Shown piece after piece: positions 15,274-57,551 of a DNA stretch of 64,000 nt. The translations under genes were made by a program, and so were the position numbers. The stretch lies in assembly GCA_036172245.1 (NCBI GenBank), contig JAYWIR010000008.1:3658001-3722000 (forward strand), in the 5' to 3' direction. Each line of letters opens with the position of its first letter. Position 1 is the first letter of the stretch. A model generated the notes under the pieces. The model saw only the letters and a program-made list of their open reading frames with translations, was not told where the DNA came from and made no database searches. Origin of the DNA: Raillietiella orientalis. Taxonomy: Eukaryota.

Positions 15274-18200
15274 ATGGATGGGAAAGACATTCACTTCTGC
15301 GACAACAAGGAGGTGAAGTATGCCTTTCTTATCAAACCTATCCTTCTTGACCGTGCGGCCTGTCATTCGTATCTGCCCCCACGTATCGTGCTTTGGTTGA
15401 GATCATCGGGGTGGTGCACTCGCAGATTTTTTGCCCCTTCATTTGAATTTACATGCATTTCAAGAGAAGGAAACACACTTTCGGTGATTTTGGACCGATG
15501 TTTGCTCCAAATCAGGGTGTGATTTCTTCGACGTAAGGGGACTCGAGCCGTGAATCATCATCTTCTTTTGTTTCTGCATAGTGGTATTCAGGAAGACTGA
15601 AGAATAAGGCTTACCATGGAAAGGGAACTTACTCATGGGGAGACGGATTTACTTACATTGGAAGATTTTACTTGAACCAAATGGAGGGATATGGAAAATT
15701 ATTTTATCCCAATGGACAGCTGTTTCAAGTAATTCCAGTCATTCCAAGTTTTTATACAGCAGTAAATTTTGTTCTTTTCGAAGGTTCCACTTATAATTTT
15801 CGAAATCGGATGAATGCACATTCTTTTACATTTAATTAGAGCTCCATACCGTGGAAAACCCTAATTGTAATCCTTCCGTGTTTCGTGTTGAGTTTTGCTC
15901 ACATTCCAATCCATACTTTAGTAATTGCTTAGTCGCGTAACGAAGCACTATTTTTGTTTTTATTTCTTATAAGAAAGTTCGATCGATCGATGTGATTCAC
16001 ACGATAGGATCAGTTTTTTAAAACAAGCCAAGGGTACGATAAGATTCGCGTGTGACGGCACATCACATACACTCTTTTTTTCTCTCTTTGCTCTCAGTCA
16101 TTGTCCCCATTGCGGTGTGAGTTGCGAGGCGAGCTTTTCCGCCATGTCTTGTGTATCCCTTCAGGAGTGTCCCCAATTTAAACTGGTTCCTCCAGGTTGA
16201 AGCTGCTTCCTCCAGCAAGGAACCGTATTTCCTGAGTATAGCTGGAGACGTCCGAGTTATCAGGGATTGCGGCGAGGGTTGTTCTTTTGAGAGCAGGGAG
16301 TGAAACCATCCGTGGTCATCTTGTACAGTGACCAGCCGTGGATCCTCAAGAGCATGGTCCCACCGCCGAGATTATGTACACGGCACAAGTTCTGTGGGTG
16401 GGAATAGTGTGTGCGTTTCGTGCGAAGTGTTTCCGGGTGCCCACACATCGGGAATTTCCCGTTCTTCGGGGGCATGGCCTTACTTGTTGTTGACAATCAT
16501 TTGCTGGTGTCGAGAAACTCCGAATCGGTTTCGTGTCCTGGTGTCACCTGATGCCCACCTACGGACTGGGGGCATACTGCATCCCATTTCGCTTCTTCCG
16601 GTATTGACTTTCGGCGTAGAAAACCGCCGCAGCTCAAATCCTTTCGATCGCCCGATCAGCAGCAGCCCGGTCGCTCCGTTTTTTAGATCCCACAATTTGA
16701 TCCAAGTTGTAGCTTAGATTCTCTCGGTGCGAGCACTTGGGCTTCCGTCGTGCATCCAGGCCCTTTGAGATTCTTTTTTTCCTAAAGCAATCGGATGCTG
16801 CAGAGAGAGAAAGGCCAACAGGAAAATTTAGGAGGAGAGGGATTCAAGGTGTGATCGTCGTGTGGATCACCTCGAAGTGTTCAGAGGTAAAAAGTATAGC
16901 CCAGCCAACCAACGTGTTTTTTCCGAGGAGAACCGGACTTGATCTCAGTCACAGAGTTCTTGAAGGCGAAACTCTGAACCTCGAGAGCGAATCTGATGGG
17001 AGTCTTACGTAACTAATGTTACCTAAAATAATTGATTGCAAGATTCCTTTAACAAACGTGTGCTGTAAAAACTGGGCGCAACTGCAGAGTTTCACAGTGT
17101 GGCGCTCGGATGGACGTCCCATTCTTATAACGAATATAAGAATGGGGCGCCAATTCGATGACGTTACTATACGTTTCGTAAGTACCAATTCTATGTGAGA
17201 ATTATTACAAGCACTGACACTTTCATTATGCACACAGCATTACGTAATTAATTGCCGATTCCCCATAAGAACGCAGTTTACTGTGATCACCTGGGGTTGC
17301 TGTGATCTGCATGAGAATAAAAGCCGTTTCGCTCTGTTTTTCAAGATGGTTCATGTGCTGAGGTTCGGTCGACGCTGTCATGAATACCAGAACCGGTAGA
17401 TCTGGAGGGAGCCTATACCCTTCAAGATAGGCAGACATTTGCTGCATCAGCGTGAGGGAAAGAACTGATTCTCAATTCTTAGACATCGCGAGACCACATT
17501 GCTGTTTCCATCTCACCTTACAGAGAACTCTGTCGCTGCTCGCGCGGCACTCGGCAACGCTCGCTTCTCGACTGCTGTCCTGCATCTTCACGACATCTCG
17601 GATCCGCTTCCCGCTTTTCGACTGAAGACATTTCTGTTTAGCCCTCCTCTCTCAGAATCGCGTGGTACTCCAAGCAGCTCCCTGTGAAACAGCAATTCTT
17701 CGTGTGAAGCAGCAGCAACGCATCGCGTGAAATTCTGCTTCTTTTTAAGGGATCATCAAGGAAAATCAGTCGAAATCCGGAAGTCAGAGTCGACTTCTGC
17801 AATGCTTGGAATCTCTGTCGCACGTGATTCTATTGCTCTTTCAAGTGTTTCGTTTCTCCGAACGAACAGTGTCTTCTGTTGGACTTGTCGCAGCTGCCGT
17901 TAGTTAGTCATTTTCGGTGGAGACACGCGGTTTGCAGTTGGGTTCCGTGACTTTTGGGTGGCCTCGACAAAACAGAGCCTAAACGTGCTCCAGCTGCTTT
18001 CGCGGGAATCTTTCTCATCTGTAGGTGAGGACTCGTTCTTGAAGCAAGTCCATCCACCAGTTCAGTGAAGCCACACTTCAGTGCAGTTGGTCCTTTTGTT
18101 GACATAGTTTAGAAAACCTTTACCATTCTAAAATATCCAGCCGCTTACCGATGCTCTGCGATCGTGCACTGCCCAACGCAATTTAAAAACTTTGGGAAGC

Positions 18201-46309: not shown

Positions 46310-49240
46310 TATAAGGAAAACTTCATGTTTATTTATATATATATTTTTTAAATTATAAATGGACGTCCTGGAGCATCCTGGAGGGTATGAAACCGCACAA
46401 ACAGAAAACTGCCCAATGCGTTTGGAACAGATTGGGCGGCAGAGGAAGGGATCACGCAGAGGAATGACTCGCTGGCGTCCCTCAGCATCCTGTCTAGTAA
46501 GCCGGCAAGTTCCCTCTCCTTTTAGTGGGCTCAGGTGCGGTCATCTCAGCGCGATCCTGAGAAAGGGAAACACGGCCTTTTGTGACCTCAGTCATCGGGG
46601 CTTCTAGCCTCCACGACTTCACAAACGCAGCGCAAAGCTGCGATCGCTTCCGGGAGGGGAGAGAGGGAGGAATAGATCCATTTCAATGCAAATCCCTCTC
46701 CCCCCCCCCCTTCCGTTCCTAAAGGGTACGGAAGTGGATCTCCGATCCTTTCCCCTCCGGCATCGCTCCACGAGTGAAGAGGCGTTTGAATGCACCCTTC
46801 GGGTGGTCTGGGGAGTCCAGGAATGTGGGCGAATGTTCCCGTGCACACCAGAGAGAAGCACGTTCAAGCAACAGGTGCGGGGAAGGTTTCCCATGCACCG
46901 CACCTGGCACAGATGGGACCACACTTTCCCCTGGTTCAGTGGTGAAGGTGTGCCTTCGCACGGGATGGCCCAATGTCAGGAGTCGCAGAGTCGAGTCCTG
47001 CCATCTTCAGAGGAAGCGCGGAGCAGTCCAAGGACACCACGGAGATCACCAGCTCCGTTCAAGGGGACTTCCAAGAGATCTTCACAGAGGGGAAATCCTT
47101 TGGGGTGGTTGCCAGCTGACACGTCGTCCAGTATCCCACTCTCTTCTCCTCTCTCAGGCGGTCTTGCAGGTTCTGCTCACGAGACGGGTCAAACAACACG
47201 GGGGGTCCAAACGACCGAACGTGCGCGCAAGAGGTGGGCGACGAAACGGAATGAGTAAAATGCTTCCTCCCGGTGTCTCCCACTTCTTTTTCGTCAGCAA
47301 AGCGAATCAGTCAAGCGAAGCCGATCACAGTTGAAGTCTTCGGTACTTGCAGTCGCTGCATGGGGGCGCTTTTTTCTCTTTCCAGCTGCTCCGCCCGGGT
47401 CGGATGCGCCCATTCTGGGGCTGCCGTTTGTGTTCGTCAGGATAACATGAAAGCTGCGGCCACGGGCTATCCCCAACCTTCCCCGTGGCTGCTTCGGACG
47501 GCGTTTCGGCGCCGGGAGAGGGCGATGCATCGCGCGGTCTTTTCGTTTCAGGGAATACAACCGGGAGTCCAACTTGGGCTGACGAAAGGGGATGCAGTTC
47601 CGTCTTCCTATTCAAGAGTTCGCAGCATCTTCGCGGCTCGGCTAGGAAGGGGAAGTCTGCCGGGAAGGCAGGAGGTGCCAAAGCCTCCACGAAAGAGCTT
47701 TCCACGAAAATCACCTCGTCTCAGGAGACCACTGCTGGAAAGCGCATCCCCAAACCGGTTTCCCCCCCCGTCCCCCAGAAAAGAAATGGCGGAGGGAAAA
47801 ACTAGAATGAGGAGGGGTGGGGGGACTCCAAAGTCGTTTGGAGAAAACGTGGCAGCAGTCGGGCGAAACGCGAACGCTTGCGAAACGACCGTTTACGTGG
47901 AGGCGCGCCGACGTAAACAAAACCTACGATGACCTACACCTACGAGTGAGTGTCAAACGAAACGAAAGTCGCAGTAAGGATGTGAGTCTCCCACGAGTCG
48001 TTTGGAGGTCTGCAAAGGTTGCAACAATTTTATTTACAAGACTGAAAACAAATGAACAAACAGGCAAAAGAAAAGGAAGGTGGCAAAAGAAAACGGACGC
48101 TAATCGGACGACTTACTTTTCCCCCAAAAAAAACAAAAACAAAAACAAAATCCCACCTCAGGGGCTCCCCGAAAGGAATGATTTTCGAGCACCCCATTAG
48201 AAAACTTGCAGCACGCTCGAATCTTCGTCGAACATCCGAATTCGGGATGCCATCGTCGCCCTGAATCCTTCGCGGAAGGAATGGTGGCAAAGTTCTTTCA
48301 TCCGCCGGAAAGGCATGGGGGGTGTCGGCCGCCTCTGCTCGGCCATCACGCGTGAAGCCACGTGGGGACAGCGGTCGATGCTTCCGTCTGTGCAGGGTTG
48401 CCAGTGCAACGAACGAGGAGGACCTGTCGCTCAAGACTTCAACGGACGCGCGACACGGCAGCCGGAAGCACCGTTGGTCAGCATGCAGTATCGCGTTCGT
48501 TGAATGCAAGTCTGCGGAGGATGCTGGATGAAGTTTTTTTTAAATGCCCGCACCAAGACAGACAAGCGCGCACCGGGGGGGTGGGGGTGGGGGGATGGAA
48601 AGCAAAAACGAATATCCCCCGTGCCCACATCTTGCAAGACGTGAGAACTGAAGTGCTGCCAGGGATTGTCGATGCCCCTGTATCTTGAGGGCTGCGCGCA
48701 CGTGCCTCGTGGGCGTGCTCTGTAATGGAGGGTTAATTCCATGCTGAAGGAGATGACGTCTGCTTGAAGAAAGGAGTGACATGTTCGTGTTTGCTACGAG
48801 AACATGGAGTCGTGCCCGTGTAATGTTTGCCCGCGTGGAGCCTCTGGCCATTCCTTTTTCCTCTGTGTGAATTATTCTACCGAGTGTTGCATAGTGTTTT
48901 GCATTTGCATTTGGCGGGTGAGATGCACTACGCGAACCGGGCGTGCGACACACGCACGTTTCATCCTCGCTCCAGCACACGTGCGTGCGTGAGCACGCGC
49001 GGGAGGGCGGACCATCGTGGCCGGGACGCCGCGTGAGTCGAAGCCCAGCAGCGGAGGAGGTTCGCGGAAGAGCGCAGTCCTGCGCGCGGGGACCTACGGG
49101 GAGGAAACTCCTGCGCCTCGGGGCGGGAGGCGGCAAGAGGTTCCCACATTTTCTCTCGCGTCGCCTTTTTCCTCGTTCGTGCGTGCGACCAGCCCCGTCC
49201 TGTTCCCCCCTCCTCCTCGTTTCTCTCGGCGTTTCTCTTT

Positions 49241-50898
49241 CCTCAGCCTCGCTGTGGCAGTCGCAGGAACTTTGCGAGCTGCACGCCGTGGGCAGCGCGC
49301 CGCCTGCGATTCTTGCGACAGCAGTCTCCCCTCTCTGAACTGTCTCGCTCACGGCTCACTCGCTCGCACGTGCGTGCGTGCGAGCATTTTACTGTTTTCC
49401 CGCTTGCTGCCCTCCGCCTTTCGCACGGGAGCGATCCGTGCGGACGCCGCCGTGCCTGACGACGGGATCCTCTTCCCCACTCGCGACCAAGACGGCGGTG
49501 GCAGTCCCAGCTCTCCCGTGGCTGCTTCGGACGGCATCTCACGGCACCGGGAAATCGGCTGGAGCAGCGCGGGACCCGTCGTCACCCAAGACTGCCCGGG
49601 GCAGACCGGAGGGGGTGCCTTTTGTTCCCTCGATGGCTCCCCTCGGCGAGCGCATGGACCCTTCCGCCTGTGGTCGCTAATGGGGAGGACACCACGCTCC
49701 CCTCTCGCATCGCGGAGTGTAATGAGGTCCGCGGGAGACCGCCGCCGCTGCGGCGCGGAACGCCGGCGCCATCGTGAATGCGGCTGTCACGAGTACAAAG
49801 GCGCTGCGCCGCCGGCGACTGCCTCCCGAACGTCTCCGGAAATTCTCCCTTCTTCCCGGACCCGTCCTCTCCCTCCCTCCCCTCTTCCCTCTCCTTTGAC
49901 CCTTCTCCTCCCCTCTTCCTTCTCCGTTCGTTTCTTCCAGACCCCCCTCCCCTCTGCCTCCCCCGGGAGGTGAGAGGCTCCGGCGCGCGAGTCCCTTCCG
50001 TGTCCGGCGGGAGGCCCAGTGACGGTTCCGCCGCTCCCCTGATGGTCGGCATGGAGACCACCTGACCCCTTCCGGACTGGAGAGATCCCCAAAGCTCCCG
50101 TTCCTTCTTCCTTCCTCCCTCTCCAACCCATACCCCCTTTTCCTCGTTCTGCCCTCGTCCCCGACCCCTCCGGCTGGGTGTGCGCTCCTCTGCCGTCGAC
50201 ACGCCCCGCCGCAGGGAGGTGGCCCCGGAGGGTACAAGAAGCAGGGGAGCATCTGCCCTCCAGGTTCTCCCGCATCACTTCCCTGCGGCGGGGAAGCCGA
50301 CCAGGACACGGGAGAATCATCCTTTCTCCCCCCTCCCGTTGCCATGGGTACTGAAGTGAATCTGTGATCCTTACTCTCCATCTTCCTTCTCCCTTCACCC
50401 GCCTCCCCGGGCCAAACCTCTGGGAGAATGGCAGCTCCGGTTCTTTCCCCGGGAGCAGGGGGTTGCCGGGGTTCTCCCGACCTCTTCCTCCTCCGAGTCC
50501 AGGATTCTCGGCTAGAGCAAGAAAATGGGGTTGGGACCATCCACCTCCTTGCCTCCCTTCCCGTCCCGTCTCGTGTGGCCGCAGTGGATTCGGCCCTCAG
50601 GGAGTCGCTCAAGGGCGAGTAATACCTCCCTCGCCCGCCTTCCAGCGGAATGGATCGCGAGAAACTACCTCGTCTCCCCTCTTTTCCTCCTCCCCTCGAA
50701 CCCAAGAAGGGCAGGACGCCCTGGCTCTCGGTCGCCCCCAGGAAGCACCACGGGCGCGCTCCCTCTCGACCCCGGTCCACCCTCACAGCACCTCAGTCTC
50801 ACTGTGGCAGCCGCAGGAACTTTGCGAGCTGCACGCCGTGGGCAGCACGCCACCTACGATTCTTGCGACAGCAGTCTCCCCTCCGAATTGTCTCGCTC
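49241..50898 (+). repeat. ~110-bp direct repeat pair (49241-49350 and 50791-50898)
   Basis: First 93 nt differ at 6 positions, all transitions; offset 1550 bp. Confidence 0.95.
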
Positions 50899-53800
50899 GC
50901 CGCTCGCGCGGACCTGTGGGACTCGCTCCTCGGGGTCTCCTCCGCCGAAAACGCCCCCCGGCGGTTCAGCACGCGCGGCAGGTCACGGAGGCTCCCCCCC
51001 CCCGCTCCCTCCCTGCACCCGTCTTTCCCGTGGGACCCGGAGCTCACACCGCAGACTCCGAATACGCTCCGAATCCCCTTAGGGGCGGAGGAACGAGGGT
51101 GAGCTGTTCCCCCGTTCCTCCGCCCCTGAGGAGGCAGCAGCGACGCGGGCTCTCTGCGGGAGATTGCGGAGACAGAGGGGAAGGATCCATCGATCGATCG
51201 AATTGCTCCAGCCACGCCCGCGTGCGCGTGCTCTTCCTCCTCTTCTGTTCCCCTTTTTCCCTTCCTTCTTTTCCTTTTCTCGCATCCTCCCGCCAGCTCC
51301 CGAAAGTGGCGAACCGCGAGGGCTTCCGAGGTTCCACGCTAGATGTCACCGGAGGTGCGTCCCGTCCCGGGCGCGCGGCTCGCCTGCTCACTACTGGCGC
51401 TGGACTCCTCCGGTTCGTTTTCAGTCCCCCCCCCCTTCTCTCCTCTTCCTCTGCTCACAGAAGGGGGGAGGGAGGGTTCGCGGGCGCCACCCCGCCGCAG
51501 TAGTCCGTGCGGTTGCGATAGCGTTACCAGGCCCTGCGTCTCTGCTCCGCCAGAGGAGGAAAAAACCGAACCCTATCTTCCCTCCCTCCATCTTTCATCC
51601 CTGATTTCCCTCCGACCCCCTTCGCATCGATTCTCCCCTTTTGTTTTCGTCTTCGTTTGCTGGCAGTTTGGCAGGCGACCCAGGCGCTGCTGCGGGGAAA
51701 GGCGGAACTCCTCGGCTTGTGGGAGGCGGAGGGAGGAGGGAAGCAACGGCCCAGTATCGCTGCTGCTGTTGTCGCCGCTTTGTGTGAGTGGAGGGAGAAT
51801 CGCGTCGCTCGGGTACGAGAGCGATGGTTCGATGGCGGGGATCCGAATTCCTTCATCCCGAATGCCGTCCCTCCTTCCCTTCCTGCTCCCCTTCGCGTGC
51901 TGCTCCCCGGATGCTCGAGGGATGGGCTGGGGCGTCGGGATGCCTACTTCCCTCTTGACTCTCGCGTTTCCCCTTATGCCCTCGAGCACTTTCCCCCTCG
52001 GGGGAGATTCTCTGCCGGGAGTCCCTCCCTCTCCCTCCAGGAAGCTCTGGACCAACTCGGCCGGCAGCCGACGGTCCCACCCGGCCGACGGGGTGCATAC
52101 CTCATCTCCCTAATGCCTTCGCCATGCTGCCATCCAGGCTACCGCGACCGGTCCGGTTCCATGTCAAGTCACGTCTCCCGGCGCGCGACCCTGCCTGGAC
52201 TCGGGAAAAACGCCCGGGAAGTGGCGAGGAGCACTTCGCCCCCCAGGCCCGAGATGGATGGTGGCGGAGTCTGACCTGGGTCTCCACCGCCTTGCAGCCC
52301 AAACAATGTTGCCCGAAATAGGGCCGGGAAAGGATGGAGCACGTCCGACACTTCGGGAGCGCGCGCCCTCCTCTGGTGCACGGAGCGGTGCCGCCTGCGT
52401 CGCTTCGGGCCGCGGGTCTCAGGACTTCCTCCCACCTTCCCAGTCTAAAGCTCCCGCAGCAGGACCCCTGGAACCTTTGCTTTGCCCCTACCCCATCCCC
52501 TGGCATCACATGATCCGGGGAGTCAGCGTCATCTCCAAACGAGGAAGAAGGGGAAGTGAACAGGATGAGGAAGAGGAAGAGGAAAAAGAAGGGAGGAGGA
52601 AGAGAGAAAAGAGAAAGGGGGAGTGGGAAGAGCAGGAGAAGGACCAATCTTATGCTCCCCAACCTCTCCCTTTCTTCCCCATCGTCCGTATTCCAGCATC
52701 CCCGGAAGCATCCGATCGGCGGTTCTGCCTTGAACTCGCCCGCATCTTTACGTGATTCCTGCCTCTCTTCATCCGCGAAGCTCCGGTCGCCGCCATCGTC
52801 GCCCTGACGATGAGGATGCGCAACGGATGAGCGCGCAGTCCTCGAAGTCCCCCCCCCCCTCCCCCCGTCCTTTGACTAAGCGCCTAGGTCCCTCTCTCTG
52901 CTTCCCGGATGCGCCCCCTACTGGAAGCCGCTACCTCCGCAACAGCAGCACCCGCGCCTGCACAGACGATTGCCCCTCTGATCTCACCCCGTTTAAGGAC
53001 CTCCCCTCCCTTCTCGCACAGCTGCCGCTTCCTCCAGAGAACGCTGGAAGCTGCAGCAGCAGAAGACGGATGGGAATCTCTGCGGTTACCACAGATCCTC
53101 TGCCCATCTCGACCTCCCGGGTCCCGGGATCCGGACCGCATTGCTCTCTCGAACGCTTCCCGGATCCTTCCTCAGCGTTTCTTTGAATGGCGCGGTACCT
53201 TAGGCTTGGTTCTCCTCCTCCTGCAGTAGCCAGCACGGGGAGGTGGGCTCCCCCTGAGACCCCTTAGTCCTTTCCCTCGCGTTCCAGGACCGTTCCCGAC
53301 GGAGGGCTTCCTCGCGGTCATTCTGTGCATGCTGTTGATGGCGGCGGGAATTCGCTCCCACCAACAACTGGCTACGGGAACGAGGGGGTTCGCACGCTCG
53401 TCGCGAGAGGGGAGGAGGAGAGGCTCCTTCTCCGCGCGCTGCTGTCACCCTCCGCGGAGGCGCACCTCCCCCTCGCCCTACCTCCCTGGGGTTCGGAGGT
53501 CCACAGGATGCGCGGCACCCAGCCGCCGCCTTCCACCGTCTCGAGGCTTTGCATCCGCAAGGTGGTGCGCACGCGATCTCCCTTTCCTCCACCCCCGCTC
53601 GTGGGGTGCAGCCAAGGAGGGAGCCTCCGGAGGGCGTTCGGCGCCACGGCCCGCCGGGGACCGGGGGGGAGGAATTGCCAAACTCCTCCCATCCTCTCCT
53701 CTGCTGGGCTCCGCCCTCTTCTCATTCCAGGGACACGCGCTCAACGTCCCGGGACGAGTCGCTTCCGACCCCCTCACGGGAGGGACGCGAGGGGCAGGAA

Positions 53801-54014
53801 TGGAGCCCCGCTGCCGCCTTGGCAGGAGCGACCGGAAGAATTTGAATGCCCTGGGGTCCTCACCGGACTCTCGGCGGCGGTCCCCTCCCCATCTTCCTCT
53901 CCGGACGGAAGGGGTGGGGAAAAAGATCCCCCCCTTGCTTCCCCTCCCCTCCCTTCCCTCTCTCCGGCTCCAAAAGGTCAGGACGAATCCACGTTTATGA
54001 GCTGCCCGTTGCCC

Positions 54015-55183
54015 TCAACCCCTCCTCCTCCTCCTCTCCGCGTTGCCCTTCGGCAGAGGACCGGAGAGAGAACGAGGCACCCCGTCCCGGAAGGGGGACC
54101 GGGGGTCCCGGAAAGGTGCGCCGCCGCCATCGTCGTAGTCGCCGTCGCCGCCGTCGTAGTCGCCGCGGCCCTCCTCCTCTTCCTCCTCCTCCGGGTAGCC
54201 CCAGGGGCCGGGTCGGACGCGCCAGCTGCTTGGAATCCTTCCGCCAACCTCATCGTCGCCAGGTCCCTGCAGGCGGCTCTCCCGAGGGCCGGCGGCGCCC
54301 TCCTCCTTCGCCCGCCAGCGTCTGTCTTCCTGAGGGAGAGGGGTTCCTAGGGGGGGAACAGAGAGAGACTCGTGTGGGGGCTCACGAGTCGGCCCGGAGG
54401 GCCATGTTGGGCTCACCTGGGTCCGGCGGCGGACCCTGATCATCCCCGAGAGCCTCCAGCAGGCGTCGGAAGTCGTCATCGGACAGCCTCTCTTGCAGAT
54501 CATCGTAGCCTCTCGGAGGCAGCTCCCAGGACCTCCTGGACCTCGCGCGCTTCCTTCTGCGGTCGTACCCGAAGTACGTGCGCCGGCGGCGGGTCTCCTC
54601 GGGCTCGTCGTAGGGGCCGCGGGCCGAGGCCAGGGACTTCTTGCGATGCGCCCTTTCCAGCAGCGAGGGCAGATCCCGGGGATCCTTCGTGTCGTCGGAC
54701 CGCAGGAGAGCGTAGGGACGCCGCGCCCCTCCAGGGAAGGGGTCGACGGGCGCCCAGGGATCTCTCGGGACCTCCTCGGGAAGGCCTGTCCGTCGGCAAG
54801 AAAGGAAGTCGAGGGAGGGGCGTGGTCACCCTTCCTGCCGACTCACCTGTGCCTGCGCGGTCGTCGGGGCCGCCTCGCGCGAGGTCCAACGCGGATGCCA
54901 GAAGCGCCGCCGCCTCGGCGTCTCCCCGGTCGCGGCCGTCGGTTCGCTTCTGACGCCGAGCGTCGAGGAGGACCTGGGCCCTCTGCTCCGAGGGGGCAGA
55001 CGATGGAGAGAAGGCCGAGGGGGCGGTGGCGACGGCGATCGAGGGTCTCCCGCCCGCAGGATGGCGGGAGGAGCCGTCGGACGACAACTGGGCTTCCTGC
55101 CCTCCGGCCACCGGTCGCCACCAGACGACAGCGGCGGCAGCGCACACCAGGAGAGGCACCCACGTGGCGCGGCAGGCTATCAT
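54015..55183 (-). CDS. Secreted prohormone/granin-like neuropeptide precursor candidate, 3 coding exons, 345 aa (3' end less certain)
   Basis: Exons 55183-54847, 54785-54417, 54346-54015, with donors CAG|GTGAGT and CAG|GTGAGC, all phase 1, no internal stops. Signal-peptide-like N-terminus MIACRATWVPLLVCAAAAVVWWRPVAG. Basic sites RRQKR, RKK, RRRR, RRRKR, RSRR, and an acidic stretch EEEEEEEGRGDYDGGDGDYDD. A non-coding 5' exon (~55455-55355, GTG|GTGAGT) splices to TTTTCCAG|55240. Confidence 0.6.
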
Positions 55184-55480
55184 CTCGGAAGCAGCTCTTC
55201 CCGATGGGGTGGACGCTCACAGGGAGAGCTCGAGAGAAGCCTGGAAAAGGGCAGAACGCCTCCGGAGGAACGAGGAAGGGGTGGGCGGAAAGGGAAGCCC
55301 TCCCCCCCCTCCCGTGCGGGCCCTCGAGGGCAGGGGGGCTGCGTCTGAACTCACCACCACCAGGTTGTCGTCGTCGTCGTCGACAGGTGCGAGGGATGCG
55401 CGCTCGTCCCGGGCCAGGCGGATGTCGTCTTCCCGGTTCCCCTGCAGGAGCAGCTGGGCGGATCCGTTCCGCCGGCGGGC

Positions 55481-55583
55481 TATTTATAGCTCTCCTCCCC
55501 GGCTCCTCTCCCTGCCTCCCGCGTCGCCGCCGTCGCCGCCGTCGCCGCCCCGGTGTCACGGGGCAACAGGTTGCCGTGGCGAC
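55481..55583 (-). promoter_or_regulatory. TATA box / MEF2 site with tandem RFX X-box-like motifs upstream (copy 1)
   Basis: TATAAATA on the minus strand at 55488-55481, within CTATTTATAG (MEF2 consensus). GTCACGGGGCAAC (55555-55567), then AG, then GTTGCCGTGGCGAC (55570-55583). An Inr-like CCAGCT lies 33 nt downstream of the TATA. Confidence 0.6.
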
Positions 55584-57478
55584 GGCGCGGCGAGGGAGGG
55601 AGGGAGCAGAGGCGGGAGACCCGCTCTCGCCTCCCTCCTTCCCTCGTCCGATCTTCCCGTTCCTGGATCGGGCAGGCGGACTCCGCCAGACGCCGTTTCG
55701 TCCTCCCCCCAAGAGAAGCTGCGCGAGAAAGCACTTCGTTCCCCTCCCCTTTTCTCACTCTCTCTCGATCCCCTCCCTCCTGTGGTTGCCACTGACAGCC
55801 GCCGCCGGTCGCTGCCGGTGGCATCGACGGCGGTCGCTCCCGTAAGCGCACGCGCCTTTTCCTCCAGGGGATGCCCCACAGCCAGTGCTGTAGGGAAGCC
55901 GGGGGTGACCTCGAGCCTCCATGGGACCTCCAGGCTGGTCACGGCCTCCTCCGCTCACGTCCCCGGGCCGCCCCGGAAGGAGAGAGGAGAGAAGGACAGA
56001 AGGCGCCATCTGGTTCTTCCCTCCGGAAATCCTCTTTTCTCTCGCCCTACGAGGTCCCCGCGCGCGCGTCGGGGTCATCCAAGAAGCCAGGGGACAGGTC
56101 GAAAGGCGGCCGGCGGGGCGACTTCCCCTTGGCTGCCCCTGCACCTTCCCCCTATTCCTCGAGGCAGCTCCCTCACGACGGAGTTGAACTTCACCCTTAG
56201 AGAAAGCGGCGCCCACTGGCTACCTCCCTCGCCCGCGGGTGGCCAAGAAGAAGGTGGCGTTGCTGTCCCCGCGGCGCCACCCGCTCCCTTCTTCGACGCG
56301 TCCCCGTCCAAGACATCCACATGACCCTCCGGCGTGCGGCGGACGAACATCCGCGCGCCGAGGCAGCCTGCGGCCAAGAGAGGGAGAGGTGCTCCTGCGT
56401 TGAGGTGCGCGCTTGACCTCTGGGCCGCGCCCAAGGACCGAGAGGGCGAGCCCGAAATTCAGAGGGACCGAGGGAAGGGGAGCAGCCCCTCCTGCAGGCG
56501 ATACCGCACCCTCAGGCGGCCAGAGGGAGGCTCCTGGTCCGTCATTACCTCAACCTTCGATGCGTCCCAGAGTTCCGCGCGGCTTCCGCGGTGCCGAAGT
56601 CGGACGGCAGCGCGCGCCCCCTCCGTGGCGTCGTTTTAGCCTCCTCGCCGATTGTCGATCCACGTAGCCTGGGCAGTTTCCTTCGCTTGCCCGTGTGGAT
56701 CGGCCCCCGAGGGTTTCCAAGGCGACTCTTCGCTCGAGAGCCTGCGCCTGCTTCAGGAACGGGCCTGCCTGACATTCGCGCCTCTCAGGGAGGTCGGGGA
56801 ATAGCCAGTGACGAGAGGTTCGAGGAATCGTCCCTCCGCCTGGCAGCGTCGCCTCTCGTCCATCGCGCGCGCGACGATGCTCCTCGAAGTCCACCGGGTG
56901 CTTCGAAGATGGCAGAACATCACCTGCCCGTTCGGTGCCCGCCCGAGGAAGCCCACACCAACCGTGGGTGCACAGCACGCATTGCGACGCGGTGTCCCGT
57001 CGCTCGCGCAGGGCGAGGGGAACGCTCGCGTTACGCTCGCATCCCCTTTTTCTCCCAAAGAGAGCCACTCCGACTGCCGCCCACCACAAGCCGCTCTCTT
57101 CCTTCCAGGATGCATCGGCGTACTTCCAGTTGCACATGTGCTCGCTGGAGGGCGGCATCGCTCCAGAGCGTCCCTGGGGATGGGGGCTACCCTCGGCCTC
57201 AGGGCGGCTGCTGATGGCCGCAGAAGGTTCCACTCGCCGAAGGATGGGTGAAGGGCTCATCGCCCGCGACTCTTGCAGCGCGGAACCGGCGGCTGGAGGG
57301 AAACGGCCGCGAAGTCCTCAGTCACGAGGTGCACGGGAGGGCAGGGAGGAGGGCGTGAGGAGGAGGGAAGAAAAACCGTGCGGGGGAGGCCAGCGAGGGA
57401 GCCACTGGCGCCTACTTCACCCTGGTACGAAGTCGTCCTTTCCTTTGCCCCTCGCTAGCCCCTTTTTTGCTCCGGGGC

Positions 57479-57551
57479 TATTTATAACTCTGCTCCCGCA
57501 TCGCCGCGGCCATCGGCCCGTTGCCACCGGCAACAGGTCTCCGTGGAGTAC
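57479..57551 (-). promoter_or_regulatory. TATA box / MEF2 site with tandem RFX X-box-like motifs upstream (copy 2)
   Basis: TATAAATA on the minus strand at 57486-57479. GTTGCCACCGGCAAC (57520-57534), then AG, then GTCTCCGTGGAGTAC (57537-57551). The TATA flank is 21/23 identical to copy 1. Confidence 0.55.

What the first reader, a model, noticed from the sequence alone, without database searches (positions are those of the whole stretch)
54015..55460. Hidden prohormone-like precursor gene that the ORF track does not assemble
Seen: a 5' UTR exon plus three phase-compatible coding exons. The middle exon frame is absent from the ORF list. They give a 345-aa protein with a signal-peptide-like start, many di- and polybasic sites and acidic Tyr-containing segments. 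Predicted products include TYFGYD (between RRRR and RRRKR), SLASARGPYDEPEET and SWELPPRGYDDLQERLSDDDF. Established: signal peptide + polybasic convertase sites + acidic spacers is the layout of neuropeptide/granin precursors, and Tyr flanked by Asp/Glu (DYD, GYDD) is a sulfation context. Inference: YFGYDRRRKR recalls the YFGxDRRRK motif I remember from insect NVP-like/prohormone-2 precursors. It may be a very divergent member of that family or a new precursor.
Basis: partly seen in the sequence, partly recalled or inferred. Interest (0 to 1): 0.75.

Follow-up and report, generated by a model that had tools for sequence, protein, structure and literature searches.

The report
Divergent baratin (NVP-like) neuropeptide precursor gene
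This is most likely a small spliced arthropod gene for a secreted neuropeptide-type precursor, a heavily diverged relative of the insect baratin/NVP-like (prohormone-2) precursor, so it is a useful annotation and not a new kind of system.

Summary
On the minus strand a TATAAATA box (55488-55481) precedes a non-coding exon and three phase-1 coding exons with GTGAG donors and YAG acceptors. Together they give the 345-aa protein described. Codon-position GC periodicity changes register at both coding introns and collapses after the stop. The N-terminus looks like a signal peptide, and basic residues cluster more than shuffles allow.

INTS6 next door places the window in an arthropod. No HMMER-level homologue exists (Pfam).

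The candidate keeps three family blocks in family order: ALLRSD..DP, YFGYD-RRRKR and LSDDDFRRLLEAL. That combination appeared in 0 of 20,000 composition-preserving shuffles.

It lacks GNxQN and the conserved C-terminal blocks. A baratin-core-like RGRWGG lies in frame just behind the TGA, with no good intron to reach it.

Verdict: a real gene and a probable, strongly GC-skewed and possibly truncated family member. Transcription, splicing and processing are untested.

The parts
55481..55488 (-). TATA box (TATAAATA), 28 nt upstream of the proposed transcript start
   Evidence: It is one of 3 TATAAATA on the minus strand of 40-64 kb. Function is inferred.
55355..55460 (-). Exon 1, 5' UTR; its 5' end is inferred from the TATA box
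   Evidence: It ends at donor GTGAGT (55354-55349). I saw no ATG in it when reading. It contains a (GAC)5 run.
55241..55354 (-). Intron 1 (114 nt), within the 5' UTR
   Evidence: GTGAGT...ccttttccAG. It is C/T-rich.
54847..55240 (-). Exon 2: 57 nt of UTR plus codons 1-112 and one extra base; ATG at 55183-55181
   Evidence: An in-frame TGA lies upstream at 55219-55217. GC1/2/3 are .74/.66/.80.
55103..55183 (-). Signal-peptide-like N-terminus, MIACRATWVPLLVCAAAAVVWWRPVAGG
   Evidence: Arg at position 5, a hydrophobic core at residues 6-22, then small residues before Q28. The cleavage site is a heuristic guess.
54786..54846 (-). Intron 2 (61 nt), phase 1
   Evidence: GTGAGT...ggacAG. The periodicity phase shifts here.
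54417..54785 (-). Exon 3 (123 codons); carries the three family-like blocks
   Evidence: GC1/2/3 are .73/.55/.80.
54679..54711 (-). ALLRSDDTKDP, the counterpart of the family block (E)NALLKSELYG(D)P
   Evidence: the full 13-column window PYALLRSDDTKDP (54717-54679, two residues upstream of this entry) matches 8 of 13 family column classes. Only 13 of about 128,000 six-frame positions in the window reach 8; the regex with the ..DP tail is unique in the window.
54547..54576 (-). YFGYDRRRKR, the counterpart of family Y(R)YYG..(D/E)..RRKR: an aromatic pair followed by a polybasic site
   Evidence: 2 matches in the whole six-frame translation, one of them this.
54448..54486 (-). LSDDDFRRLLEAL, the counterpart of the family helix block L(D/T/S)PE(D/E)(V/I)LTLLSLW
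   Evidence: matches 8 of 11 family column classes and ties for best among about 128,000 positions (3 positions reach 8).
54347..54416 (-). Intron 3 (70 nt), phase 1
   Evidence: GTGAGC...ccccctAG. The periodicity phase shifts here.
54015..54346 (-). Exon 4 up to the stop TGA (54017-54015). It holds W..RPGPWGYP, a run of seven Glu, two DYD sites, ..GGAPF.. and ends ..NAERRRRRG
   Evidence: GC1/2/3 are .75/.62/.78. It loosely parallels the family segment 'YRPW..acidic run..WL(D/E)xPV'; that block on its own is not significant.
53994..53999 (-). CATAAA, the only poly(A)-signal-like hexamer near the stop
   Evidence: no AATAAA or ATTAAA on the minus strand between 49000 and 54100. Weak evidence for the 3' end.
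53871..53903 (-). RRGRWGGDRRR, in the frame of exon 4 but 38 codons past the TGA. It is like the baratin core, basic site + (G)RWGG(F), of beetle precursors
   Evidence: The regex basic-x(0-2)-W[GN]G has 1 match in the six-frame window, and this is it. Whether it is translated is unknown.
53478..54014 (-). Open frame continuing from the TGA (178 codons). It may be a relic or a possible readthrough or alternative extension
   Evidence: Coding-type periodicity in this frame is absent at 54010-53770. None of 21 in-frame GT..AG pairs has a consensus donor.

Best explanation
The locus is a real, spliced, TATA-driven arthropod gene. It encodes a Cys-free, disordered secretory precursor of 345 aa. 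The precursor is a strongly diverged homologue of the insect baratin / NVP-like / prohormone-2 neuropeptide precursor.

Inferred mechanism:
- The N-terminal signal peptide takes the protein into the secretory pathway.
- Subtilisin-like proprotein convertases cut at the KR / RR / polybasic clusters, and a carboxypeptidase trims the basic residues.
- This releases acidic, Tyr-containing peptides, for example SLASARGPYDEPEET, TYFGYD and SWELPPRGYDDLQERLSDDDF.., some of which may be Tyr-sulfated.

The extreme local GC pressure explains why only short blocks of the family survive. The CDS is 72% GC and Gly+Ala+Arg+Pro make up 49% of residues. K is replaced by R, and N, Y and I are nearly gone.

The family's C-terminal, baratin-bearing module is not part of the annotated CDS. 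A baratin-core-like RGRWGG flanked by basic sites survives in the same frame just behind the TGA. So this precursor is either truncated relative to its relatives, or it has an isoform that these tools cannot see.

Shown here: the sequence signals, the periodicity, the protein composition and the ordered family motifs. Inferred: transcription, splicing, secretion, cleavage, sulfation and any bioactivity.
For: Gene signals: TATAAATA at -28, three GTGAG(T/C) donors and (C/T)AG acceptors behind pyrimidine tracts. Intron sizes of 114, 61 and 70 nt resemble those of the neighbouring INTS6 gene, which has introns of 43, 65 and about 140 nt.

Coding signal: GC2 < GC1 < GC3 in all three exons. The periodicity phase steps at both coding introns and collapses after the stop.

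Secretory and prohormone layout: a signal-like N-terminus; dibasic pairs 19 against 10.4 (9 of 5000 shuffles reach 19); runs of four or more basic residues 3 against 0.27 (5 of 5000).

Host: INTS6 best hits are arthropods at 43-56% identity (all but one row at 50-56%), and the tree puts the window among arthropods.

Family link:
- I built column classes from the published alignments.
- The ENALLKSELYG.P block matches PYALLRSDDTKDP at 8 of 13 columns. Only 13 of about 128,000 six-frame positions reach 8.
- The helix block matches LSDDDFRRLLEAL at 8 of 11 columns. Only 3 positions reach 8.
- Both occur in family order in 1 of 20,000 composition-preserving shuffles. With an aromatic-pair plus polybasic motif between them, the count is 0 of 20,000.
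- A 10-block collinear score is reached by 6 of 500 shuffles.
- Four family-style regexes each occur 1-2 times in the whole six-frame window. All four fall in this locus, in family order and in model-consistent frames.

Literature: prohormone-2 = NVPIYQEPRF precursor = NVP-like = baratin precursor (passages).
Against: No sequence search reached significance.
- phmmer of exon 3 against 1.84 billion representatives: 0 hits at E <= 1e-3.
- Word-indexed searches among longer proteins: 0 of 1573 candidates at E <= 0.01 and 0 of 5074 at E <= 10.
- Pfam: nothing for any of the 3 exons.
- Atlas look-alikes were meaningless, best score 0.82.
- Exons 2 and 4 were never searched on their own against the large protein sets.

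Family blocks not found in the CDS: GN[QHR]QN (the protein has one Asn), YEKGY.YG, WL(E/D)GPV, WGGF, KRFMV..KR, LAQLL in its place, and the terminal P.Y.R.VL.

Statistical cautions:
- The strict Y[RQ]YY[G] block matches only 3 of 5 columns.
- With the extended protein the collinear score is weaker, 21 of 500 shuffles.
- The motif classes and regexes were written by me after I had seen the candidate. The regexes in particular are post hoc.

Other gaps: there is no canonical poly(A) signal, no transcript, peptide or orthologue evidence, and long ORFs are cheap at this GC.
Confidence: 0.6

Rival explanations
1. It is a real secreted, convertase-processed precursor gene, but a lineage-specific one. 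On this reading the resemblance to NVP-like/baratin precursors is convergence of low-complexity acidic and basic sequence.
For: All HMMER-level searches were empty and Pfam found nothing. Most family blocks are absent. Neuropeptide precursors commonly share aromatic-plus-polybasic strings. My motif tests are partly post hoc.
Against: Two blocks defined from family columns rank in the top 13 and top 3 of about 128,000 positions. They sit in family order with the aromatic/polybasic motif between them, a combination seen in 0 of 20,000 shuffles. In addition, RGRWGG flanked by basic sites lies downstream in the same frame.
Confidence: 0.2
2. It is a decaying or truncated copy of the baratin precursor gene. 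On this reading the TGA at 54017-54015 is a nonsense change that cut off the baratin module, and the remainder is drifting under GC-biased substitution with little or no function.
For: The baratin-core-like RRGRWGGDRRR lies in frame behind the stop. No consensus intron bypasses the stop. Coding periodicity is lost after 54015. Many conserved blocks are eroded. There is no canonical poly(A) signal.
Against: Upstream of the TGA everything is intact: the TATA box, the start codon, the signal peptide, 345 open codons across three exons, all splice sites, codon periodicity and clustered cleavage sites. The published Dendroctonus precursor also lacks the last part.
Confidence: 0.13
3. It is not a gene. 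On this reading a chain of chance ORFs in about 70% GC DNA happens to be flanked by splice-like strings.
For: Stop codons are rare at this GC. ORFs of 450-500 aa overlap the locus on the opposite strand. Triplet repeats near the promoter also give strong 3-periodicity outside any CDS. No homologue was found by search.
Against: The following coincide: the TATA box, three consensus donors and acceptors, phase compatibility, the first ATG opening a signal-like peptide, and the periodicity register following the introns. Basic clustering and the ordered family motifs add to this.
Confidence: 0.05

Closest known systems
Insect baratin / NVP-like / prohormone-2 (NVPIYQEPRF-containing) neuropeptide-like precursor. 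Alignments: Veenstra 2014, PMC4237046 Suppl. Fig. 10; Veenstra 2019, PMC6585902 Fig. S2.
   Same: Size class: 345 aa against roughly 320-420 aa. Signal peptide, no Cys in the mature part, and an acidic Tyr-rich body cut by polybasic sites. Three blocks in the same order: ALL(K/R)S(E/D)..DP, then an aromatic pair + G + acidic + RRRKR, then the L(S/T/D)x(D/E)(D/E)(V/I/F)..LL helix. After these comes a W-containing segment with an acidic run.
   Different: No HMMER-detectable similarity. There is a 33-residue insert between the first two blocks. There is no KR directly before the helix block. YEKGY.YG and WL(E/D)GPV are missing. The whole C-terminal module (xWGGF, KRFMVxxKR, LAQLL, PxYxRxVL end) is absent from the CDS, and an RGRWGG lies only behind the stop codon. 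GC-driven composition is extreme.
Dendroctonus baratin precursor, the truncated form
   Same: A family member reported to lack the last part of the precursor in both genome and transcriptome (passage; alignment).
   Different: Dendroctonus still has the RWGAF core inside its CDS and recognisable upstream blocks. Here the core is outside the annotated CDS.
Lophotrochozoan GNXQN precursors, proposed homologues of prohormone-2 (PMC6425005; passages only)
   Same: Same proposed protostome-wide superfamily, so a member in a non-insect arthropod would be expected.
   Different: The shared hallmark GN[QHR]QN near the N-terminus is absent here.
Granin / prohormone-type precursors in general
   Same: Signal peptide plus acidic disordered body plus clustered dibasic sites plus Tyr in acidic contexts. 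This is how it probably works.
   Different: This is a functional analogy only, with no sequence relationship. None of the matches found is to a vertebrate granin.

Membership tests
baratin / NVP-like / prohormone-2 precursor | N-terminal signal peptide on a Cys-free precursor of about 300-420 aa | tested here: met
   Hydropathy and the -3/-1 heuristic. 345 aa, with 2 Cys, both in the signal-like segment. SignalP was not available.
baratin / NVP-like / prohormone-2 precursor | Block (E)NA(L/V)LKSELYG(D)P | tested here: met
   A degenerate copy, PYALLRSDDTKDP, matches 8 of 13 column classes. 13 of about 128,000 six-frame positions reach 8. 1075 of 20,000 shuffles reach 8 somewhere.
baratin / NVP-like / prohormone-2 precursor | Y(R/Q)(Y/F)(Y/F)(G/D/E) followed within a few residues by a polybasic site | tested here: inconclusive
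   The strict 5-column block matches 3 of 5 (RTYFG). The relaxed form (aromatic pair + G/D/E/T + up to 6 residues + three basic) is met by YFGYDRRRKR: 2 matches in the six-frame window and 149 of 20,000 shuffles.
baratin / NVP-like / prohormone-2 precursor | Helix block (KR)D(L/V)xL(D/T/S)PE(D/E)(V/I)LTLLSL(W/Y) | tested here: met
   LSDDDFRRLLEAL matches 8 of 11 classes and ties for best in the window (3 positions). 145 of 20,000 shuffles reach 8. The preceding KR site is missing.
baratin / NVP-like / prohormone-2 precursor | Baratin-type core (basic site, xWGGF, basic site) | tested here: inconclusive
   Absent from the 345-aa CDS. RRGRWGGDRRR is present in the same frame 38 codons after the TGA, and no consensus intron reaches it. 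Apis and Bombyx members also lack WGGF.
baratin / NVP-like / prohormone-2 precursor | C-terminal module KRFMVxxKR ... (T)LAQLL ... PxYxRxVL at the end | tested here: not met
   No match in any frame of the window with the family regexes. Block scores in the locus are unremarkable. This feature is not universal, since Dendroctonus lacks it.
prohormone-2 / GNXQN superfamily | GN[QHR]QN region near the N-terminus (PMC6425005) | tested here: not met
   No GN.QN; the protein has a single Asn. The Tribolium and Zootermopsis rows of the published alignment also lack it.
baratin / NVP-like / prohormone-2 precursor | Statistically significant sequence or profile similarity to family members | tested here: not met
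   phmmer of exon 3 gave 0 hits at E <= 1e-3 in 1.84e9 representatives. Word-indexed searches gave 0 at E <= 10. A family profile HMM could not be built, because family sequences were available only as paper text.
baratin / NVP-like / prohormone-2 precursor | Expression in CNS neurons or neurosecretory cells and peptides detectable by mass spectrometry | not testable with these tools
   No transcript or peptide data for the source species. Family background comes from passages.

The most novel reading that the evidence does not exclude
The baratin-type peptide of this species is encoded behind an in-frame UGA. On this reading the gene makes a short precursor ending at ..RRRRRG. By stop-codon readthrough, or by an unconventional 123-nt phase-1 splice (54019-53897), it also makes a longer isoform that adds RGRWGGD between polybasic sites. 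Release of the family's name-giving peptide would then be controlled at the level of decoding or splicing.
Probability: 0.1. Interest if true: 0.6.

Novelty: new member of a known kind. Interest (0 to 1): 0.35.

Why it matters
If confirmed, this adds a neuropeptide-like precursor gene that start-codon ORF lists, and probably homology-based annotation, miss. It also extends the baratin/NVP-like (prohormone-2) family into a fast-evolving, GC-rich arthropod lineage that falls outside the insect clade in the INTS6 tree.

It is a clear example of how GC-biased substitution can erase all but a few short blocks of a precursor. The blocks that survive (ALLKSE-like, aromatic pair/polybasic, the DPEDVLTLL-like helix) point to the parts under the strongest constraint in a family whose receptor and active parts are, as far as I recall (no call checked this), still unknown.

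The in-frame baratin-like core behind the stop codon is a small, testable oddity. The rest is an ordinary annotation gain.

Tried and rejected
1. Vertebrate prohormones (proSAAS, gastrin/CCK, granins). I considered these from memory because of the GC content and the GPW..EEEEE string. I dropped them once INTS6 placed the window in arthropods.

2. Pfam.
- The three exons gave nothing.
- Of 410 stop-to-stop ORFs of 80 aa or more, only 5 had families: MORN, Ank, class II photolyase, VWA_2 and the INTS6 barrel. 0 of 130 ORFs in 49.3-64 kb had any.

3. Other scans. Rfam and tRNA scans of the window found nothing. Atlas look-alikes for exon 3 were uninformative, best score 0.82.

4. Search for the family's C-terminal module anywhere in the window by regex. 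None was found. A first regex missed RWGGD because it demanded F after WGG.

5. Search for an intron that skips the TGA. There are 21 in-frame GT..AG pairs. All have non-consensus donors (GTCCCC, GTGCCT, GTCCTC, GTTGAG), and the best-placed acceptors have G at -3.

6. RNA structure after the TGA as a readthrough element. The z-score was -0.62, not distinctive.

7. Paralogues in the window. tblastn of the spliced protein found only itself.

8. Literature.
- The 'baratin' searches were swamped by an author of that name.
- Four papers (PMC5141488, PMC6158917, PMC4770511, PMC7179676) held the search term only in their reference lists.
- The supplement of PMC12604039, which holds a cockroach/stick-insect NVP-like alignment, could not be read.

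9. A formal profile-HMM or pairwise alignment to family sequences was not done. These sequences were available only as paper text, not as stored proteins.

10. Unchecked.
Full report
**Observation.**

- A TATAAATA box lies at 55488-55481. It is one of three on that strand in 40-64 kb, and it sits 28 nt upstream of the proposed transcript start.
- Exon 1 (about 55460-55355) is non-coding and ends at GTGAGT.
- Intron 1 (55354-55241, 114 nt) ends ccttttccAG.
- Exon 2 (55240-54847) opens with 57 nt of leader. That leader holds an in-frame TGA at 55219-55217. The ATG is at 55183.
- Intron 2 (54846-54786, 61 nt, GTGAGT..acAG) and intron 3 (54416-54347, 70 nt, GTGAGC..ctAG) are both phase 1.
- Exon 3 is 54785-54417. 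Exon 4 runs from 54346 to the TGA at 54017-54015.
- With start-codon-based ORF listing the middle exon's frame is absent. It shows only in stop-to-stop listing.

**Is it more than chance?**

ORF length is worthless as evidence here. The region is about 70% GC, and ORFs of 450-500 codons overlap the locus on the other strand. The evidence comes from elsewhere.
- Two of the five GTGAGT sites on the minus strand of 40-64 kb are the model's donors.
- All three exons show GC2 < GC1 < GC3.74/.66/.80.73/.55/.80 and .75/.62/.78.
- In a sliding scan the register of this periodicity steps 0, 1, 2 at the two coding introns and collapses after 54015. One stretch in the Ser/Ala/Pro/Thr-rich first half of exon 2 departs from this. 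I attribute that to its amino-acid make-up.
- Strong periodicity also appears at the promoter and 5' UTR. There it comes from (GGCGGCGAC)3 and (GAC)5 repeats, so periodicity alone must be read with care.
- The neighbouring INTS6 gene has introns of 43, 65, about 140 and 634 nt with GTRRG donors. Short introns are therefore normal in this genome.

**The protein.**
- Residues 1-27 look like a signal peptide: Arg5, a hydrophobic core at 6-22 with Kyte-Doolittle values up to 2.99, then PVAGG|Q. No other hydrophobic segment exists.
- The only two Cys lie in that segment.
- Arg, Pro, Gly, Ala and Asp make up 59% of residues, and the protein has only one Asn.
- Basic residues are clustered. There are 19 dibasic pairs against 10.4 +/- 2.7, and 9 of 5000 shuffles reach 19. 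There are three runs of four or more basic residues against a mean of 0.27, and 5 of 5000 shuffles reach three.
- Five of eight Tyr sit among three or more acidic residues.
- This is the layout of a convertase-processed secretory precursor. Cleavage and sulfation themselves are inference from established knowledge of prohormone processing.

**Host and context.**

Pfam on 410 ORFs of 80 aa or more found families in only five:
- a MORN repeat (15582-15836, +);
- ankyrin repeats (28160-29455, +);
- a class II CPD photolyase exon (31592-31981, -; best PDB match the Methanosarcina class II enzyme);
- VWA_2 (34402-34644, +);
- the INTS6 beta-barrel (35989-37359, +).

The INTS6 fragment aligns to human INTS6 residues about 203-576. 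Its best hits among longer proteins are all arthropods, mostly insects, at 43-56% identity, with all but one listed row at 50-56%.

I built a quick tree from 29 named hits, chosen to span orders out of the 120 listed, plus the window. It places the window on a long branch (1.06) outside a well-supported insect clade, next to an ostracod. The program itself flags that join as possible long-branch attraction. So the source is an arthropod whose lineage I cannot place.

**Homology searches.**
- Exon 3 (122 aa) has no hit at E <= 1e-3 among 1.84 billion representatives.
- The word-indexed search among longer proteins found none at E <= 0.01 (1573 candidates) or at E <= 10 (5074 candidates).
- Pfam and Atlas look-alikes gave nothing.

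**The family lead.**

The literature confirms that these names denote one family. The Apis NVPIYQEPRF precursor is prohormone-2 (passages of PMC6425005). It is the same as NVP-like of Tribolium and the baratin precursor (passages of PMC6585902 and PMC4237046).

I read two published alignments: 17 beetles (PMC6585902 Fig. S2 and sequence table) and seven insect orders (PMC4237046 Suppl. Fig. 10). They show these ordered blocks:
- YEKGY.YG;
- ENA(L/V)LKSELYG.P;
- NQYRYYG..(D/E) followed by RRKR, for example YYGNDDRRRKR and YRYFG..KKRKR;
- KR-D(L/V)xL(D/T/S)PE(D/E)(V/I)LTLLSLW;
- a W..acidic-run..WL(E/D)GPV segment;
- the baratin core (K/R)..(Q/R)WGGF;
- KRFMVxxKR;
- (T)LAQLL;
- the end P.Y.R.VL.

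So the remembered motif is real.

**Testing the candidate against the family.**

Family sequences were available only as paper text, not as stored proteins. I therefore could not build a profile HMM. Instead I wrote column classes for the blocks from the alignments and scanned with them.

Block matches against the whole six-frame translation of the window, about 128,000 positions:
- The helix block matches LSDDDFRRLLEAL at 8 of 11 classes. This ties for best, and 3 positions reach 8.
- The ENALLKSELYG.P block matches PYALLRSDDTKDP at 8 of 13 classes. 13 positions reach 8.
- The other seven blocks (YEKG, strict YRYYG, WLEGPV, WGGF, KRFMV, LAQLL, PLYRRVVL) are not distinguished in the locus.

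Results in 20,000 composition-preserving shuffles of the mature protein:

| Event | Shuffles showing it |
|---|---|
| First block reaches 8 | 1075 |
| Helix block reaches 8 | 145 |
| Both, in family order | 1 |
| Relaxed aromatic-pair/polybasic motif anywhere | 149 |
| All three, in order | 0 |

A cruder collinear score over all ten blocks is reached by 6 of 500 shuffles for the 345-aa protein and by 21 of 500 for an extended protein.

Four family-style regexes each occur once or twice in the whole six-frame window. All four fall in this locus in family order. These regexes were written after I had seen the candidate and overstate significance.

Against membership:
- GN[QHR]QN, the hallmark that links prohormone-2 to lophotrochozoan GNXQN, is absent.
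- The C-terminal module is absent from the CDS and from every frame of the window.
- Neither feature is universal in the family. The Tribolium and Zootermopsis rows lack GNxQN, Apis and Bombyx lack WGGF, and Dendroctonus lacks the last part.

The substitutions in the surviving blocks (K to R, E to D, loss of N, Y and I) go in the direction that GC-rich codons favour. This fits the 72% GC of the CDS.

**The 3' end.**

Directly behind the TGA the same frame stays open for 178 codons. Thirty-eight codons on it reads ..SVRRGRWGGDRRRESGEDPRAFKFFRSLL...
- RGRWGG is the core of the beetle baratin site, KRGRWGGFAD.
- The pattern 'basic pair, up to 2 residues, W[GN]G' occurs only here in the six-frame window.
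- A phase-1 intron at 54019-53897 (123 nt) would join ..AERRRRR to G-RWGGD. However, its donor is GTTGAG and its acceptor has G at -3.
- None of the 21 in-frame GT..AG pairs has a consensus donor.
- Coding-type periodicity in this frame is absent just after the stop.
- The RNA there folds no better than shuffles, z = -0.62.
- The only poly(A)-like hexamer is CATAAA at 53999-53994. There is no AATAAA or ATTAAA on this strand from 49000 to 54100.

The simplest reading is a precursor truncated before the baratin module, with the module's remnant in the 3' flank. Readthrough, an unconventional splice or an assembly error remain possible.

**Conclusion.**

Most likely (about 0.6) this is a functional gene for a secreted, convertase-processed precursor that is a highly diverged and probably C-terminally truncated member of the baratin/NVP-like/prohormone-2 family.

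Rivals:
- a lineage-specific precursor with convergent motifs (about 0.2);
- a decaying relic of the family gene (about 0.13);
- no gene at all (about 0.05).

The family is expressed mainly in the CNS in the species studied (passages of PMC13478068 and PMC12604039). As far as I recall, and I checked no call for this, its receptor is unknown.

Nothing here is a new kind of system. The value is an annotation gain, a case study of GC-driven erosion of a precursor, and the small oddity of a baratin-like core behind a stop codon.

**What stayed unchecked.**
- Transcripts, peptides, orthologous loci and selection.
- The cockroach/stick-insect NVP-like alignment in the unreadable supplement of PMC12604039.
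- A true profile comparison with family sequences.

Noticed in passing
window 57479-57486 (-), with 56550-57317 (-): A second TATAAATAGCCC promoter-like site lies 2 kb upstream on the same strand. Like the candidate's promoter, it is preceded 50-90 nt upstream by a GTTGCC/GGCAAC inverted repeat: CCTGTTGCCGGTGGCAACGG here, GGCAACCTGTTGCC at 55574-55561. Downstream, an ATG at 57260 opens a 255-codon frame with no Pfam match. This could be another unannotated gene or a shared regulatory element.
   Followed up: partly
window 46330-46337 (-): A third TATAAATA on the minus strand of the GC-rich half. I did not examine what lies downstream of it.
   Followed up: no
window 34501-38281 (+): An INTS6 gene that is compact, with very short introns (43, 65 and about 140 nt, plus one of 634 nt). 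It has one 1.37-kb exon covering the equivalent of human residues about 203-576. It sits on a long branch outside insects in a 30-row tree.
   Followed up: partly
window 31592-31981 (-): An exon of a class II CPD photolyase. The Pfam DNA_photolyase match has E = 2e-15, and the best PDB match is the Methanosarcina mazei class II enzyme.
   Followed up: partly
window 15582-15836 (+) and 28160-29455 (+): A MORN repeat and ankyrin repeats on the same strand. One PDB hit of the ankyrin ORF is 'Ankyrin repeat and MYND domain-containing protein 1', so this may be one ANKMY1-like gene spanning about 15-30 kb.
   Followed up: no
window 55523-55549 and 55368-55383 (-): Triplet repeats, (GGCGGCGAC)3 just upstream of the TATA box and (GAC)5 followed by GTGGTGGTG in the 5' UTR exon. 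They give the strongest 3-base periodicity of the region although they are outside the CDS.
   Followed up: partly
window 53320-53560: A patch of strong codon-like periodicity (GC by phase .53/.80/.85) about 500 nt downstream of the gene. It straddles the stop of the downstream open frame. ORFs run through it on both strands, including a plus-strand one with a hydrophobic FLAVILCMLLMAAGI segment. It is unexplained.
   Followed up: no
window 1-64000: A sharp compositional contrast: 40-45% GC at 8-16 kb against 64-70% at 50-64 kb. In 49.3-64 kb none of 130 ORFs of 80 aa or more has a Pfam family.
   Followed up: partly
window 34646-34690 (+): A long A-rich run of about 45 nt, interrupted by a few G, inside the first INTS6 intron.
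   Followed up: no
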